Made by a program: the position numbers and the translations under genes. The notes below the pieces were generated by a model. That model made no database searches and had not been told where the DNA came from. It worked only from the letters and a program-made list of their open reading frames with translations. DNA of 63,598 bases, counting the filler, from Collodictyon triciliatum (taxonomy: Eukaryota), in NCBI GenBank assembly GCA_043381765.1. It is 6 parts of 6 records of this genome, joined end to end, with 100 filler letters (N's around TTAATTAATTAA, not from the genome) between each part and the next. Parts side by side here need not be neighbours in the genome. Positions count along the whole stretch, not along the records: positions 41,489 to 54,511 come from JBHJMP010000289.1; 5 more parts are not named here. One strand, written 5' to 3'. Positions 41,389 through 46,469 of the stretch are shown one piece after another (positions within the stretch are counted from its first letter, which is position 1; each line of letters begins with the position of its first letter).

Positions 41389-41488
41389 NNNNNNNNNNNN
41401 NNNNNNNNNNNNNNNNNNNNNNNNNNNNNNNNTTAATTAATTAANNNNNNNNNNNNNNNNNNNNNNNNNNNNNNNNNNNNNNNNNNNN
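41389..41488. other. Artificial assembly linker
   Basis: 44N-TTAATTAATTAA-44N. Confidence 0.95.
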
Positions 41489-41497
41489 ATAATAATC

Positions 41498-41559
<62 letters not shown>

Positions 41560-41571
<12 letters not shown>

Positions 41572-42284
41572 GGGGAACAAAATATGACCTACGAGCTCTA
41601 GCCATTAACCCACGGACACCAAGATAAGTATGAATATAGTGCTCAGTATTAGTTTCTCTGTTTCTTTTCTATATTTTCTTCATCTCTTTTTTCTTTTTTC
41701 TTTTTTCTTTTTCTTTTTTCTTTTTCTTTTTTCTTTTTCTTTTTTTTCCGGTCTCATCCAGCCTGTAAACGGATAAAATTCATTACAAATGTTGTGACGA
41801 ACTTGGGTTTATCCCTTTCAAAGGACACAACACTTTTCATACAACGAAAGTGTACCCATATATAGCGGTTTATGGCACAGACAACCATCGAATTAAATCT
41901 AGATTGACAAGAGCAGGAGCTTTGATGAATCCAAACAATCTGAATAATATAACAATATAATTAGTATACATAATAAGGGTTATAAATACATAATAATCTC
42001 AACCCACTCATATAATCGATTTATATTTTATTTTCATTTATGCGATATTATCATTAAAATTCAAAAAATACAAACACGCCCTTGCCTTGGCCCAGATAGA
42101 ACATACCCTATAAACCTGCCACCACACATGGATTTCAAAAAAAGCATACTATCCACACTTGTGGCGGCAATCATGTTGTTTGAGGCCGATATGTTGACTT
42201 TCAGTCGCAATGGCTCTACGGCCATCCTTTCGAACTCGCCGAGTCAGCTCTCAGCGTTTTGTCTCAAATCACTTCTAAAAAAAA
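41560..42284. repeat. Dispersed ~720 bp repeat, copy B, abutting a (TAA)n tract on the left and ~160 bp upstream of the Fanzor remnant
   Basis: Colinear with 19228-19944; roughly 80% identical by eye. Confidence 0.9.
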
Positions 42285-42443
42285 TCGTGCGTCAGTTTGC
42301 CACAATGCGCAAATTTTGAAAATCTCAGTAGATGCTTAATTTCACCTGAATTGATATTGTGCAGTTTTTTTATTGTTACATTGACTGATTGACTAATTGA
42401 CTAAAGTTTTATTAAATTAAAAAAGTAAAGCGAAAACTTTCAG

Positions 42444-44345
42444 GTGAAGAAAAGGAAACGTCTTGAGTCTGAGAATCTAAAGTCTGTAAAACCAGACCGT
42501 CGAAACGTGAAAACATCTCTAAAGTCGATTGTAAAGAATGCGAATGACTATGACGAAATCAACGATACGGTTTTATTGTGTCATAATTTGGTTACCGACA
42601 CTTTTCTATTTGCAAGATGTTACATATTGAAATCAATAAAACTTCCAACAATCGATGAAATGTTTTTTTTTTTATTTTTATTTTTGGATTTAAAGACAGT
42701 CAGAATAGTTTCACAAGATAGCCCCACAAGATTAAGAAAAAAAAAACCAGATGTGAGAGATGACATGATGACTTTTTATCTCAATGATGTTCGATTCCTT
42801 TTGTCCCGATAAGAACGCTTTCCGTTGGTTGGACTGTCTCATTATTACCGTACTTGGCGAAGCAAACGTTAACAGCTTATCATAATAACCTTAAGGAACA
42901 TTTTATAAAGAGGTTACTGCGCTTTATAAATCAAACAGTACCTAAATATGAGATTATTACGGAACCTATTAAAAGGCAGAGTTAAGAAAGATAAAAAAAA
43001 TCATCTTCATGAAACTCGAAATATCGGAACAATAGAGAGAATGGGCTATAACGCATTTATCATATCATTCCCAGCGATATTGTAAAATGGTATCAAATAA
43101 ATCGTCAAAGTCAATCCAAATAAGTACATCCCATGTCTGATTTACATGAATCGCATTTTGAGGACATTGGAACCAAACTGTTTCAACCAATCTCTATAAG
43201 AACTAACAATATACCGTGTCATATTACTCTAGATACCGTATGTTTGATAGATCTATTAGTATTGTCTAGAAAAAAAAATCATTACTGAAGAATATATCAG
43301 GATGCAAAAAGACCCTATGGGATGACTTCTTTGAAATGAAGAAGATGGTCTTTCATCAAATAGACTACAATTTCTAATACATTATACAATCAGACGGCTT
43401 GGCGGTGTCATTATTGTTTGGAAAGAAAGGTATTTCAAATTCAAAATCTAATTTAATCAAAAAACCCAAGAAAACGTTTATATAGATGACCTTTCCGAAG
43501 ACCAGTTATCTTTATTAGTGACAAAAAAATAACAGTTGGAGTGGACGCAGGCAAGTTTAATTTGGTTTACATGGTGGATGAGACAGGTAAGAAATTATGT
43601 TACACGACACACCAAACAAGACATGATAGCAAATCTCTTCAAAATCACAAAATACTCTTGCGCGAGAAAAAAAGAAAAGTACAATGCTTCAGGGATATGT
43701 ATGACAACAGATTTACAAAGTGCTATTTCTTTTGGTCACATGACTTTTCAAGAGAATCGACAGTTTGAGACATCAAGAGTATCTTAAATCGATTTAGAGA
43801 CAGAACTGAGTAAACATAATTCATGCACGGTCGATTATGAATAATTTCGAAAATAAATATCTATGAAACTAAGATATCAGATAGAATTTTCCAGATTTTA
43901 TGAACACGTGACTTTTTCGAAAGATGATATGGAGCCAGTATGTTAATACAAAAAGAAGTGAGCTATTGTTTATGGACTTAATCGAAAAGGCATTTGGCAA
44001 GGATGTTGTACTGGCGTATGGAGACTGGAGCAGAAAATGTCCGATGAAACATTTTATGCCATCAATCGAAAGAGGATTACGAAAAATACTAACTAACCGT
44101 TTTGAACAACTTAGTGTAGATGAATTTAAAACCTCCAAGATGTGCTGCAACTGCGAAAAAGAACTGGATTATATGACACTGAAAGGAAATTCAAAAAAAA
44201 AGTACATAGATGTCTCATATGTAAAGAATGCAATCGCTCAGAAAGCAAACAAAGTGTATTCTTGACAAGGGACTTTAACAGCGCTAATAATATACTCGGG
44301 AAAGTTTTTTTTAATCTTTTAAAAAATGCCTACACCTCGCTTTAA
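42444..44345 (+). pseudogene. Fanzor1 (eukaryotic TnpB-like RNA-guided RuvC nuclease), disrupted by several frameshifts and stops
   Basis: Ordered motifs across frames: VKTSLKSIVK..INDTV..HNLV..TFLF.R.YIL..LPTID; LPYLAKQTLTAYHNNLKEHFIKRLLRFIN (~42845); KLFQPISIRTNNIPCHITLDT (~43175); IQSDGLAVSLLF; RuvC-I VGVDAGKFNLVYM (D 43544); LETELSKHNS; FRKMIWSQYVN..SE; AYGDWS..MKHF.P...GLRK; RuvC-II VDEFKTSKMCCNC (E 44122); CLICKEC; RuvC-III TRDFNSANNIL (D 44271). Confidence 0.9.
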
Positions 44346-44352
44346 AAAAATA

Positions 44353-44614
44353 GGCTGTTGGGTCTTTCCTGGCAGCCTTCACCACTACACGACCATAGTG
44401 AAAAAAGTGGTGAGACCTTGGATGCTAGCACACCAGGTTTACCAATCGAAAGATTCGTATACTCCTTCGAGTCATAATACAGCAAAGGATTTAAATAGGA
44501 AGGAAATTCGCCGAAAAGCCCCGACAACCGGCTACTACCTAATGCAGGATAAGACTCAGTCCTCAGTCTTGCGTCGCAATTGGCTTTGATCAAAGCTGAT
44601 CGCCTCTGTGGGCG
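44353..44614 (+). ncRNA. Candidate Fanzor omega-RNA scaffold / element right end
   Basis: Begins 7 nt after the apparent stop. Consecutive stems at 44353-44377, 44379-44413, 44414-44439 and AATC-GAAA-GATT (44444-44455); further stems to 44614. The position matches known Fanzor omega-RNAs; boundaries are uncertain. Confidence 0.55.
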
Positions 44615-45898
44615 CATATTGTGAAATTCGGTTTGCCTTTAACCTTCGCATGCGTCTCGCTTTCCCTCTGTTTTCCCATTTTTCTTTTGAGTGGGCGAAA
44701 CAATTGCAAAATGCCGCGGGGTTTTCAGCAACTGCATTTCATTCTGAGCGAGATGTTGATAAGTTTGATAAGGTTGGATCGTTCTGATGGCTGTGGAGAC
44801 AGAAATTCACTCGCCGCGGTTTAATGATTCTCTCACTCATTTAATACCGGCTAGGGAAAAGGATAATGAAATTGATAAGTAGAAAAAGAAAGAAAGAATA
44901 ATACAAGAAAAAAAAGAAAGATAAAAGGATCAGATATGAACAGCAGAATATATCGGAAAAAAGCATGCTTGCTCTCCATATCTTAATTCTTATTGAAAGG
45001 AATGGCGTTTCTAATTGGAAGACCGTATTAAACAGAAACGTAGATTCTTTGTCCCTGCATTTGCGTCGTTATCATTTCGAGTTAATGTGCAAAATTATTA
45101 CTTATCTATGAGAAAAGAAAGGAAATATAAAAGAAATACTAATAAATCTAATAATACTACTAATCATAACAACAATTATGATGACAACACCAAAACCAAA
45201 GTGAAAATGAAACGCCTGGCTCTATATACTCGATTGATGCCAACTACAGTGCCATGCTCTTACCCAGATACGTCAAAGTATCCAACAGTTTGTCGTTTGA
45301 TCCCAAACCATTTTTTGCATCCAAATGATTTCGTATAATAATGTCCTTGTGTATGCTTCTTACACACCTGTGTCTGAATGTTTTGTTACCGGGCATTACA
45401 ACTTGTTCTCAAAAAGAAGAAAGAAAAGGAAAGAAAAAAAGCCTTAGCCTACGCGATATCCTCTGTTATATCACCCACGCCTTCCTCCGTCATCACCCCC
45501 AAATCGAGCTTTTCTAATTAGCGAAGCATACCAGCGACCCCAACTGAGCTTTACCCACGTGACATGAGCATCAATTTATTTCGAAGTGTATTTGGATTGC
45601 ATAAGCTCCATGAAAAAAGCCCTCGATCAATCCCTCTCTATCTTAGCTGAAGCGGCCAGCGAACGAAGCAAACTAGTAGTCGTTCATCTCTCCCTCGATA
45701 CTGGAGTGAAATGATATATATGAATTCTTCTAATGTTGTTTCCTTCGTTTCTTTCGTTCTCTAAATCTCCCTCTCGAACCAACCAGCCTTTCCATTATCT
45801 CACTCAGTTGGGTCTCCCTTTATTTCTTAAACGTTTCTTTCATCTGTCCCCAAGGCTCTGTCTTTGGTTCAACCACCACGTTGCCGAGCTTGCCATCC

Positions 45899-46004
<106 letters not shown>

Positions 46005-46469
46005 AAAAGTAATAATAATAATTACCACACACTCACAGCCTTCCACCATTATACCCGAACACAAGAGTATTTAAAATCACCAGTAGTTATTTCCCCCTTT
46101 TCATGATTATCATTCTGAAATCTTTCTTTCATTATTCCCTTTTTTTTTTATCTTTATTTATTTCAGCCAACGCCCTCCCTTTTCATAACGTTGGGCGCCA
46201 GTAATTCGATCAGAATTCCGCCAAACGATTCGTCCTGATCATGCAAAAAAACAAAGCAAGGGAAAAAACAAAAGAAAAACAAACCGACAAGCAGACGCTT
46301 TTCTCTCTTTTTCTCTCTTTCTCTTTCTCTTTCTCTTTCTCTTTCTCTTTCTCTTTCTCTTTCATTCATCACTACTTTTCTCGGGCAAACAAAAACAAAG
46401 AACCACACACAGAGGCCATTCAAGTAACAAACAAAGGCGATCAGAAAAGAAAAGAAAAGAAAAGAAAAG

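What the first reader, a model, noticed from the sequence alone, without database searches (positions are those of the whole stretch)
44353..44614. Hairpin cluster right after the Fanzor stop: candidate omega-RNA
Seen: GGCTGTTGGG/CCTGGCAGCC (10 bp with three G-U pairs), perfect TCACCACT/AGTGGTGA, GACC.TGG.TGC/GCA..CCAGGTT, and AATC-GAAA-GATT (GNRA loop) packed into 44353-44455. Later come AAGACT/AGTCTT (44551-44570), the palindrome GCTTTGATCAAAGC (44583-44596) and CGCC/GGCG (44601-44614). G-U pairs and a GNRA loop favour plus-strand RNA structure. The structure looks better preserved than the ORF, so it might still supply a guide in trans; the guide would be the ~15-20 nt beyond the element end.
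Basis: partly seen in the sequence, partly recalled or inferred. Interest (0 to 1): 0.75.

Follow-up and report, generated by a model that had tools for sequence, protein, structure and literature searches.

The report
Guide-RNA relic of dead Fanzor transposon
The first three hairpins are most likely the decayed guide-RNA scaffold at the tail of a dead copy of a Fanzor jumping gene, an expected feature of a known system, while the later hairpins are ordinary flanking DNA.

Summary
Only the first cluster is above chance: 44353-44457 on the + strand has z -3.61 (0 of 200 shuffles), against -1.02 on the - strand. The GNRA mini-hairpin, 44458-44550 and 44551-44614 are not above chance.

The cluster closes a dead Fanzor1 gene (42444-44345), which has 10 frame switches and at least 3 in-frame stops. 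The "stop" at 44343 is itself decay. In intact relatives the ORF runs 37-46 codons past the RuvC-III motif, into the first hairpins.

Giant-virus relatives (38-47% protein identity) carry a conserved, strongly covarying RNA of about 150-165 nt. It spans the stop codon and ends at the right inverted repeat. A covariance model built from seven of them hits window 44345-44475 (+) at 25.5 bits, E 9e-5; the next hit scores 10.2 bits. It matches the first hairpin 11/11 pairs with different letters, and it matches SL1. Two other models (the 50-sequence set and the terminal 48 nt) miss the region.

The right end is unresolved, with candidates at 44443, 44475 and 44497, all upstream of 44551-44614. Any guide would therefore start within 44444-44500. 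Expression and present function are untested.

Verdict: a new, decayed member of a known kind; interest is low to moderate.

The parts
42444..44345 (+). Dead Fanzor1 gene. It is collinear with the 648-aa relative P0002 but is broken by 10 frame switches and at least 3 in-frame stops. The RuvC-I (VGVDAGKFN), RuvC-II (VDEFKTSK), Zn-ribbon cysteine and RuvC-III (TRDFNSANNI, ends 44294) motifs are still readable.
   Evidence: A 229-nt metagenome contig identical to 43190-43418 spans one frameshift site and one in-frame stop.
44346..44398 (+). Ancestral C-terminal coding tail, now out of frame. FKK(I)G... and then AVGSFLAAFTTTRP* align with the P0002 tail FKKQAVGYSSTALTVTHK. TAG at 44396-44398.
   Evidence: Six X2 contigs lack one base at 44344. 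The reading-frame reconstruction is inference.
44352..44378 (+). Hairpin H0: 10-11 bp with three G-U pairs and a 5-nt loop. It corresponds to the covarying hairpin that sits just 5' of SL1, inside the CDS, in the group-A relatives.
   Evidence: z -4.32; 11 of 11 model pairs formed, mostly with different letters; helices 1-2 in relatives.
44379..44413 (+). SL1. Outer stem TCACC(ACT)/(AGT)GGTGA, A-rich 3' internal loop GAAAAAAGT, and an inner stem reduced to CAC/GUG.
   Evidence: The motif pair TTCAC..AAAAAGT occurs only here in the window.
44414..44441 (+). Third hairpin (GACC.TGG.TGC / GCA..CCAGGTT). It is the variable middle part of the scaffold and aligns poorly to the relatives.
   Evidence: z -1.69; four non-standard pairs in the model's hairpin.
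44442..44497 (+). Decayed 3' part of the scaffold, holding the unresolved right end. Candidates are 44443 (AGGTTTACC), 44475 (end of the R2 alignment, terminal stem 44446-44453 with 44463-44470) and 44495-44497 (CAAAGGATTTAAA, like the relatives' CAAAGGTGTAAA).
   Evidence: and the depth. Not supported by R3.
44498..44614 (.). Flanking DNA that is not part of the element. Its first ~20 nt would be the guide if the right end is at 44497. The hairpins at 44551-44614 are at chance level.
   Evidence: z +0.32 and -1.34. No model match here.

Best explanation
Window 44352 to about 44443-44497 (+) is the relic of the omega-RNA (guide-RNA) scaffold of a dead copy of a multi-copy Fanzor1 transposon.

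In working relatives the 3' end of the Fanzor transcript folds into four parts: a hairpin inside the last codons (H0), a two-tier first stem-loop (SL1), a variable middle, and a terminal stem whose 3' arm is the right inverted repeat. The 15-20 nt of flanking DNA transcribed beyond that end serve as the guide, which directs the nuclease to a matching, TAM-flanked site.

In the window, H0 and SL1 are still well formed, the distal part is decayed, and the nuclease gene is destroyed, so this locus cannot act on its own.

Shown here:
- Position and strand of the structure.
- Above-chance folding.
- A model match to the relatives.
- Covariation in the relatives.
- Decay of the gene.

Inferred:
- That the relatives' RNA is an omega-RNA.
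- That the window's copy once made one.
- Where the element ends.
For: (1) Gene identity.
- A 117-aa piece hits Parasitella Fz1 9cf0 (1.1e-9) and SpuFz1 8gkh (3e-5).
- The closest full-length relative, P0002 (66% identity over that 117-aa piece), hits GtFz1 at 2.1e-28, PpFz1 at 2.7e-24 and SpuFz1 at 3.7e-23.

(2) Folding. 44353-44457 + has z -3.61 (0 of 200 shuffles), against -1.02 on the - strand. The three G-U pairs in H0 work only on the + strand.

(3) Relatives.
- 415 metagenome and 261 viral-contig stretches encode relatives; 80 of each were kept, and many names mark giant-virus bins.
- Nucleotide conservation runs across their stop codon and falls from about 0.9 to 0.3-0.5 right after GGTGTAAA.
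- 50 non-redundant sequences: 92.5% of cells paired against 44-51% when partners are slid; 122 cells with changes on both sides against 16-41; 0 of 500 shuffles as high.
- 7 group-A sequences: 94.6% paired against 39-53%; 14 pairs with changes on both sides against 1-3.
- Frequent U-G pairs in the terminal stem argue for + strand RNA.

(4) Model match.
- Model R2, built from group A only, finds window 44345-44475 + at 25.5 bits, E 8.7e-5, in a filter-off search of both strands. The next hit scores 10.2 bits.
- R2 also finds 42 of 47 loci of other sub-clades at their known scaffold, at 21.5-62.7 bits. The table listed 42 matches in all, at most one per locus.

(5) Motifs taken from the relatives.
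- TTCAC..AAAAAGT occurs once in the window, at 44378-44408 (1.12 expected per whole window).
- CAAAGG(N)TNTAAA occurs once, at 44483-44495 (0.17 expected).

(6) Copy number. 337 and 353 short contigs of runs X2 and X7, 80-99+% alike, lie on the element and run into the cluster. Depth is 235/142 in 44332-44415 and 20/31 in 44416-44499.

(7) Literature. Fz1 omega-RNAs lie at or over the ORF's 3' end. GtFz1's is 150 nt and overlaps 17 codons. SL1 is the conserved part, and the region beyond SL1 is described as unconstrained (PMC11423790 section 5 read; PMC10432273 passages read).
Against: - Model R1 (50 sequences, mostly the other sub-clade) gives no match at 44346-44620 at E<=10 over the window. 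In a 381-nt local search it gives only 6.5 bits, E 0.094, for SL1.
- Model R3 (terminal 48 nt) finds nothing on the + strand at 44400-44660.
- E-values of these models are rough, because calibration was shortened.
- R2's structure was drawn by me from the same 7 sequences.
- The middle hairpin and terminal stem align poorly.
- There is no covariation test for the window's own family, because no DNA of closer copies could be fetched.
- The window holds no inverted partner of a candidate right end and no transposase remnant.
- The CAAAGG pattern was relaxed after seeing the window.
- No RNA data exist.
Confidence: 0.72

Rival explanations
1. A still-functional 'ghost' guide locus. The scaffold is kept by selection although the gene is dead, is transcribed, and is loaded in trans by intact Fanzor paralogues, as at the ORF-less Spu-1 ghost loci.
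For: - H0 and SL1 are thermodynamically intact.
- The family is multi-copy in two runs. Some contigs carry, at eight of the window's ten frame-switch sites, a one- or two-base gain or loss where the window changes frame, so less broken copies may exist.
- Ghost loci are documented for SpuFz1 (PMC10432273, passages read).
Against: - The inner SL1 stem is reduced to 3 bp and the distal scaffold is not recognisable by R1 or R3.
- The one listed contig across the cluster is no more like the window than the ORF contigs are.
- No right end could be defined.
- Expression is unknown.
Confidence: 0.1
2. The structure reflects constraints other than a guide RNA. It could be a DNA-level transposon end (transposase binding, an inverted-repeat copy), or an mRNA 3'-end or coding constraint of the C-terminal tail.
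For: - In the relatives the terminal stem is formed by the right inverted repeat and an internal copy of it.
- H0 and half of SL1 lie in coding sequence.
Against: - Compensatory changes and many G-U pairs in the relatives fit a + strand RNA and not duplex-DNA recognition or protein coding.
- H0 in the window keeps the pairs while the letters, and hence the codons, differ.
- Solved Fz1 complexes show such 3' RNAs bound as guides (PMC11423790).
Confidence: 0.1
3. Chance hairpins in ordinary 3' flanking DNA, unrelated to the relatives' RNA.
For: - Two of three models miss the region.
- Half of the listed hairpins are at chance level.
Against: - z -3.61 with strand asymmetry.
- The R2 hit is 15 bits above any other place in 127 kb searched, and it falls exactly where the scaffold should be relative to the RuvC-III motif.
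- A motif pair occurs only here in the window.
Confidence: 0.06

Closest known systems
Guillardia theta Fanzor1 (GtFz1) omega-RNA (PDB 9cer; PMC11423790, PMC10432273)
   Same: - It is the best PDB match of the closest full-length relative P0002 (2.1e-28).
- Its scaffold is long (150 nt), has several stem-loops and overlaps the last 17 codons.
- The relatives' RNA is about 150-165 nt, multi-hairpin and spans the stop. The window's H0 and SL1 lie in the ancestral coding tail.
   Different: No sequence or structure comparison with the GtFz1 RNA itself was possible, because its sequence is in a closed supplement (Table S3). The window's copy is decayed and its gene is dead.
SpuFz1 and PpFz1 omega-RNAs (PDB 8gkh, 9cf0)
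   Same: - Fanzor1 on the same strand, with the scaffold between or over the ORF end and the right inverted repeat.
- SL1 is the conserved element and the guide is 14-15 nt beyond the end (SpuFz1).
- If the window's right end is at 44443, it would be a two-hairpin design like these.
   Different: - These scaffolds are 75 nt or less and start after the stop.
- The window has an extra coding-region hairpin (H0) and a two-tier SL1.
- Protein similarity is remote (E 1e-9 to 1e-24).
Giant-virus Fanzor1 elements with TIRs and a DDE_3 (IS630/Tc1-mariner type) transposase
   Same: - Homologous nuclease (38-47% identity to P0002).
- Same placement of H0 and SL1.
- The R2 model built from group A finds the window.
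   Different: - The relatives have intact ORFs.
- 16-nt inverted ends were found in 14 of 14 loci examined.
- The larger elements carry a transposase.
- The window has no detectable inverted ends or transposase, and its distal scaffold is diverged.
Spu-1 'ghost' loci of Spizellomyces punctatus (PMC10432273)
   Same: A guide-RNA scaffold without a working nuclease gene at the same locus.
   Different: Ghost loci are ORF-less, conserved and expressed, with intact inverted repeats. Here a decayed ORF remains, and conservation and expression are unknown.

Membership tests
Fanzor1 omega-RNA scaffold | Lies on the coding strand at, or overlapping, the 3' end of the Fanzor gene | tested here: met
   The RuvC-III motif ends at 44294 and the structured stretch is 44352-44441 on the + strand.
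Fanzor1 omega-RNA scaffold | Homologous to the conserved 3' RNA of related Fanzor loci | tested here: inconclusive
   R2 (7 group-A sequences): 25.5 bits, E 8.7e-5, top hit of the window. R1 (50 sequences): no hit window-wide, 6.5 bits locally. R3 (terminal 48 nt): no hit.
Fanzor1 omega-RNA scaffold | Base pairs kept by compensatory changes among copies | tested here: inconclusive
   Met in distant relatives, and H0 keeps 11/11 pairs with different letters against the model. The window's own family could not be aligned, because only depth tables of contigs were available.
Fanzor1 omega-RNA scaffold | Scaffold ends at the transposon right end, with a variable guide beyond | tested here: inconclusive
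   The relatives show a sharp conservation drop after GGTGTAAA. The window has three candidate ends (44443, 44475, 44497) and none is confirmed.
Fanzor1 omega-RNA scaffold | First stem-loop of about seven base pairs bound by RuvC/TNB (PMC11423790) | tested here: inconclusive
   In the window there is an 8-bp stem TCACCACT/AGTGGTGA, read by R2 as a 5-bp outer stem plus a 3-bp inner stem. The relatives' inner stem is 7 bp. Binding is not testable.
Fanzor1 omega-RNA scaffold | Transcribed and bound by the nuclease | not testable with these tools
   No run on record as RNA holds the stretch.
Fanzor1 nuclease (the adjoining gene) | RuvC-I, II and III motifs and a Zn-ribbon; similarity to solved Fz1 proteins; open reading frame | tested here: not met
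   The motifs and similarity are present, but the frame is broken by 10 switches and at least 3 stops. It is a pseudogene of the family.
TIR transposon with DDE_3 transposase (as in the relatives) | Terminal inverted repeats and a transposase gene | tested here: not met
   No inverted partner of either typed candidate right end (44443, 44497) at up to 3 mismatches. No end-to-end inverted repeat. No tblastn hit of the relatives' transposases. Contigs of other copies diverge from the window before 42420, so the left end may be missing.
Rfam families | Match to any curated RNA family | tested here: not met
   0 matches at E<=1 in 41000-46000.

The most novel reading that the evidence does not exclude
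The dead locus survives as a ghost guide. H0 and SL1 are kept because intact paralogues of this high-copy family load the transcript in trans, so that a pseudogene still programmes cleavage next to its own insertion site. A corollary follows from H0, the coding-region hairpin shared by this eukaryotic family and giant-virus group A: it would mark an obligatory overlap of mRNA and guide, so that each transcript yields either protein or guide.
Probability: 0.08. Interest if true: 0.5.

Novelty: new member of a known kind. Interest (0 to 1): 0.3.

Why it matters
The locus is an expected by-product of a known system: a Fanzor1 element with its guide-RNA scaffold, here dead.

Its use is mainly practical. 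It shows that a structure model built from giant-virus Fanzor1 elements can recognise the scaffold of a distant, decayed eukaryotic copy through the first two hairpins alone. That agrees with the structural finding that only SL1 is constrained.

It also flags a large family whose scaffold I did not look for in the literature. The family has hundreds of giant-virus loci plus a multi-copy eukaryotic branch, and its guide scaffold is long and overlaps the coding sequence. If intact members were tested, it could add another compact RNA-guided nuclease with a defined scaffold.

The locus itself opens no new question.

Tried and rejected
- **Own genome.** None is held for this window, so other copies could not be fetched.
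- **Window self-search.** blastn of 41501-45200 against the window found no second copy of the 3' region. tblastn found only one Fanzor copy.
- **Rfam.** No match.
- **Closer relatives with DNA.** P0002 and A3 (P0002+P0001) gave nothing in viral contigs. A3 gave nothing in genome contigs. A1 in genome contigs gave one 3'-truncated giant-virus-like contig in a bacterial MAG. The L007 protein gave nothing in viral contigs. The metagenome scan kept only the best 80 of 415 relatives, so short contigs of the closer P0001 type may have been dropped.
- **Translated search.** The + frame over the cluster (44323-44586) found no candidate protein.
- **Sequencing runs.** Only small shares (0.09 or less) in 9 runs, and no RNA holder was listed. 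X2 and X7 are 'RNA?' by guess only.
- **Uncovered stretch.** No contig of X2 or X7 was laid on 44500-44835. I read this only as compatible with an end before 44500.
- **R1 and R3.** Neither matched the region. R1's best window hit, 17971-18142 (E 0.4), overlaps a - strand ORF and was judged noise.
- **Pfam.** Nothing for the ORFs overlapping 44323-44824 on either strand.
- **Inverted ends and transposase.** Not found in the window.
- **L007.** Its RNA looks most like the window's SL1 and it may have a minimal scaffold, but its contig ends there.
- **Earlier scan notes.** Nothing for this genome or by sequence.
- **Closed supplement.** Table S3 of PMC11423790 (omega-RNA sequences) is closed, so no direct comparison with the solved RNAs was made.

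Full report
**What is in the sequence.** They are not equally meaningful.
- The first cluster, 44353-44457 on the + strand, folds at -36.6 kcal/mol with z -3.61 (0 of 200 dinucleotide shuffles as good). The - strand gives z -1.02.
- Within the cluster, the first hairpin (H0, 44353-44377: 10 bp, three G-U pairs) has z -4.32. The second (44379-44412) has z -3.26 and the third (44413-44442) z -1.69.
- The AATC-GAAA-GATT mini-hairpin is at chance (z +0.04).
- The stretch 44458-44550 gives z +0.32. The later group, 44551-44614, gives z -1.34 on the + strand and -0.76 on the - strand.
- Over all 275 nt the + strand gives z -2.39 and the - strand -1.14.
- Rfam has no match in 41000-46000.

**The gene in front of it.**
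- The + strand at 42444-44345 is a Fanzor1 pseudogene. A 117-aa open piece matches Parasitella parasitica Fz1 (9cf0, 1.1e-9) and SpuFz1 (8gkh, 3e-5).
- Pfam gives only sub-threshold OrfB_IS605 and Cas12f1-like TNB hits.
- A search for longer proteins found 8 relatives among 103 candidates. The closest are P0001 (67% identity) and P0002 (66%, 648 aa).
- P0002 matches GtFz1 (2.1e-28), PpFz1 (2.7e-24) and SpuFz1 (3.7e-23).
- Stop-free pieces of the three + frames tile P0002 residues 1-626 in order, but with 10 frame switches and at least 3 in-frame stops.
- A 229-nt metagenome contig identical to 43190-43418 spans one of these frameshift sites and one stop, so they are not errors of this assembly.
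- The window holds only this one copy.
- A DHHC palmitoyltransferase exon lies upstream on the - strand, and the scaffold has runs of N. The host is therefore a eukaryote in draft assembly, and no whole genome is held.

**The 'stop' is decay.**
- Of 80 metagenome loci, 79 carry the RuvC-III motif. In all but the few cut by a contig end, the ORF runs on for 24-50 codons, mostly 37, and 46 in L001-L005.
- In the window the frame closes 16 codons after the motif.
- Homology to the P0002 tail (…KLFKKQAVGYSSTALTVTHK…) continues in two other frames (…PRFKK, then AVGSFLAAFTTTRP*) to the TAG at 44396-44398.
- Six contigs of run X2 lack one base at 44344.
- H0 and the 5' half of the second hairpin therefore lie inside the ancestral coding tail. 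This frame reconstruction is inference.

**What the relatives show.**
- Back-translated patterns found 415 relatives in metagenome contigs and 261 in viral contigs; the best 80 of each were kept. Many are on contigs of 50-290 kb named as giant-virus bins, and protein identity to P0002 is 38-47%.
- Their nucleotide sequence is conserved across the stop codon. Column identity falls from about 0.9 to 0.3-0.5 immediately after …AAAGGTGTAAA.
- Of 160 loci, 140 had the complete region, 108 were distinct, and 50 were kept at under 90% identity (alignment A2).
- The consensus fold has three parts. The first is a two-tier first stem-loop: a 4-bp outer stem, a C-G pair, a 7-bp inner stem and an A-rich internal loop. 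The second is a short second hairpin. The third is a long terminal stem whose 3' arm is the element's end.
- On A2, 92.5% of cells pair, against 44-51% when partners are slid. 17 pairs and 122 cells have changes on both sides (16-41 cells when slid), and 0 of 500 shuffles reach the observed values.
- The end is an inverted repeat. In 14 of 14 loci examined, the last 16 nt recur inverted upstream with 3 or fewer mismatches. One further locus was dropped because it lacked the end motif.
- The larger elements carry a divergently oriented DDE_3 plus HTH transposase.
- The sub-clade closest in protein (group A, 7 distinct sequences, A4) has an additional 11-bp hairpin inside the last codons, just 5' of SL1. 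On A4, 94.6% of cells pair against 39-53% slid, and 14 pairs have changes on both sides against 1-3. I drew that structure from these same sequences, which inflates the paired percentage.

**Does the window belong to this RNA family?** Three models gave three answers.
- **R1** (all 50 sequences, dominated by the other sub-clade) gave no match at 44346-44620 at E<=10 in a filter-off search of the window. In a 381-nt local search it aligned only SL1 (44377-44410, 6.5 bits, E 0.094).
- **R2** (group A only) gave 44345-44475 + at 25.5 bits, E 8.7e-5, as the top hit of the whole window on both strands. The next hit scored 10.2 bits.
  - In that alignment H0 forms 11 of 11 model pairs with mostly different letters.
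  - SL1 is read as a 5-bp outer stem (TCACC/GGTGA), an A-rich loop and a 3-bp inner stem.
  - The middle hairpin aligns badly (four non-standard pairs).
  - A terminal stem is placed at 44446-44453 with 44463-44470.
  - As a control, R2 found 42 of 47 loci of other sub-clades at their known scaffold (21.5-62.7 bits). The table listed 42 matches in all, at most one per locus. It missed L007, which is cut by its contig end, and L023, L028, L040 and L142. The window's score lies at the low end of true distant members.
- **R3** (last 48 nt of 50 sequences) found nothing on the + strand near the region.
- Calibration of all three models was shortened, so E-values are rough.

Two motifs taken from the relatives each occur exactly once in the window, both here. 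TTCAC-N15-45-AAAAAGT is at 44378-44408 (1.12 expected in the whole window). CAAAGG(N)TNTAAA is at 44483-44495 (0.17 expected), but this pattern was relaxed after I had seen the window.

The pattern 'first hairpins conserved, rest not' agrees with the structural literature. SL1 is the conserved, protein-bound element of Fz1 guide RNAs, and the region beyond it 'may not be constrained' (PMC11423790, section 5 read in full).

**The family in sequencing runs.**
- No run holds the stretch as a whole (shares of 0.09 or less).
- Two small runs from two coded organisms hold 337 and 353 short contigs that are 80-99+% like the element, so the family is multi-copy.
- Depth is 235/142 in 44332-44415 and 20/31 in 44416-44499. 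One contig of a freshwater metagenome covers 44238-44442 and ends with the contig.
- That contig differs from the window by 22 letters and 6 gaps in 205 nt. This is about the same as the five of the six listed X3 contigs that lie wholly in the ORF, so the claim that the structure is better preserved than the ORF is not supported.
- Four contigs of X7 diverge from the window before 42420, so the left end may be missing here.

**Where the element ends.** This is unresolved. There are three candidates.
- 44443: …CCAGGTTTACC resembles …AAGGTGTAAA, and depth falls in that bin.
- 44475: the end of the R2 alignment. In the control loci the model's end coincided with the known end.
- 44495-44497: CAAAGGATTTAAA, preceded by a small hairpin ACTC/GAGT and an A/T spacer, collinear with the relatives. 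The spacing from TTCAC is 118 nt, against about 114-132 nt in the relatives.

I give these roughly 0.2, 0.2 and 0.45. The two ends whose letters I searched (44443, 44497) have no inverted partner in the window, and the inverted-repeat scan shows no pair of element ends. All three candidates lie upstream of 44551-44614, so those hairpins are flank, and a guide would start within 44444-44500.

**Mechanism.**
- By analogy with SpuFz1, GtFz1 and PpFz1 (PMC10432273 passages read; PMC11423790 section 5 and passages read), intact members should transcribe the 3' end of the element.
- The scaffold (H0?, SL1, variable middle, terminal stem) binds the nuclease on its RuvC/TNB and WED surfaces.
- The 14-20 nt beyond the right end pair with a TAM-flanked target, which the RuvC site cuts.
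- The step 'the relatives' RNA is an omega-RNA' is inference from position, covariation and family. It agrees with earlier notes of this scan on giant-virus Fanzor scaffolds, which I treat as leads only.
- In the window the nuclease is dead, so any present role would need paralogues acting in trans. That was not tested.

**Verdict.** The feature is a decayed new member of a known kind. Confidence is 0.72 that 44352 to about 44443-44497 is a relic omega-RNA scaffold. Interest is 0.3.

Noticed in passing
window 41559-42284 and 19228-19943: A 736-bp repeat at 81.5% identity lies just upstream of the Fanzor gene and again 22 kb away. It contains, on the - strand at about 41741-41779, a short fragment of another Fanzor copy (VYRLDETGKK, the RuvC-I region). 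That fragment is 83% complementary over 30 nt to 43565-43594.
   Followed up: partly
L001-L160 (e.g. L012:4747-4912, L002:4795-4952): Hundreds of giant-virus-type contigs carry intact Fanzor1 genes. They have a strongly covarying scaffold of about 150-165 nt that spans the stop codon and ends in the right inverted repeat. Elements are about 2.4 kb (Fanzor only) or larger, with a DDE_3 plus HTH transposase.
   Followed up: yes
L007:2249-2371: This relative's SL1 loop and 3' arm resemble the window's more than any other locus does. An end-like motif (CAAAGTTGTAAG) follows SL1 directly, which suggests a minimal scaffold of about 60 nt. The contig stops there.
   Followed up: partly
window 40852-41088 (-): Exon-like ORF with a DHHC palmitoyltransferase match (4.8e-6, just below Pfam's cut-off), so host coding DNA lies 1.4 kb upstream.
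   Followed up: no
window 43190-43418 and 44666-44899: Contigs of two lake or freshwater metagenome runs match these stretches with 0 and 1 differences. The organism, or a very close relative, therefore occurs in such samples.
   Followed up: no
window 17971-18142 (+): Best window hit of model R1 (13.9 bits, E 0.4), with CCATC…ATTGATTT as in the relatives. It overlaps a 111-aa - strand ORF and there is no Fanzor remnant nearby, so I judged it noise.
   Followed up: partly
window 41496-41600, 28324-28425, 45900-46022: Long trinucleotide (AAT/ATT-type) repeats. The scaffold also has paired 44-N runs 12 bases apart at several places, in a recurring gap pattern.
   Followed up: no
L161 (contig in a bacterial MAG): A giant-virus-type Fanzor1 gene (39% identity to P0002) sits on a 2.7-kb contig binned as an alphaproteobacterial MAG. 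This is probably a mis-binned viral contig.
   Followed up: no
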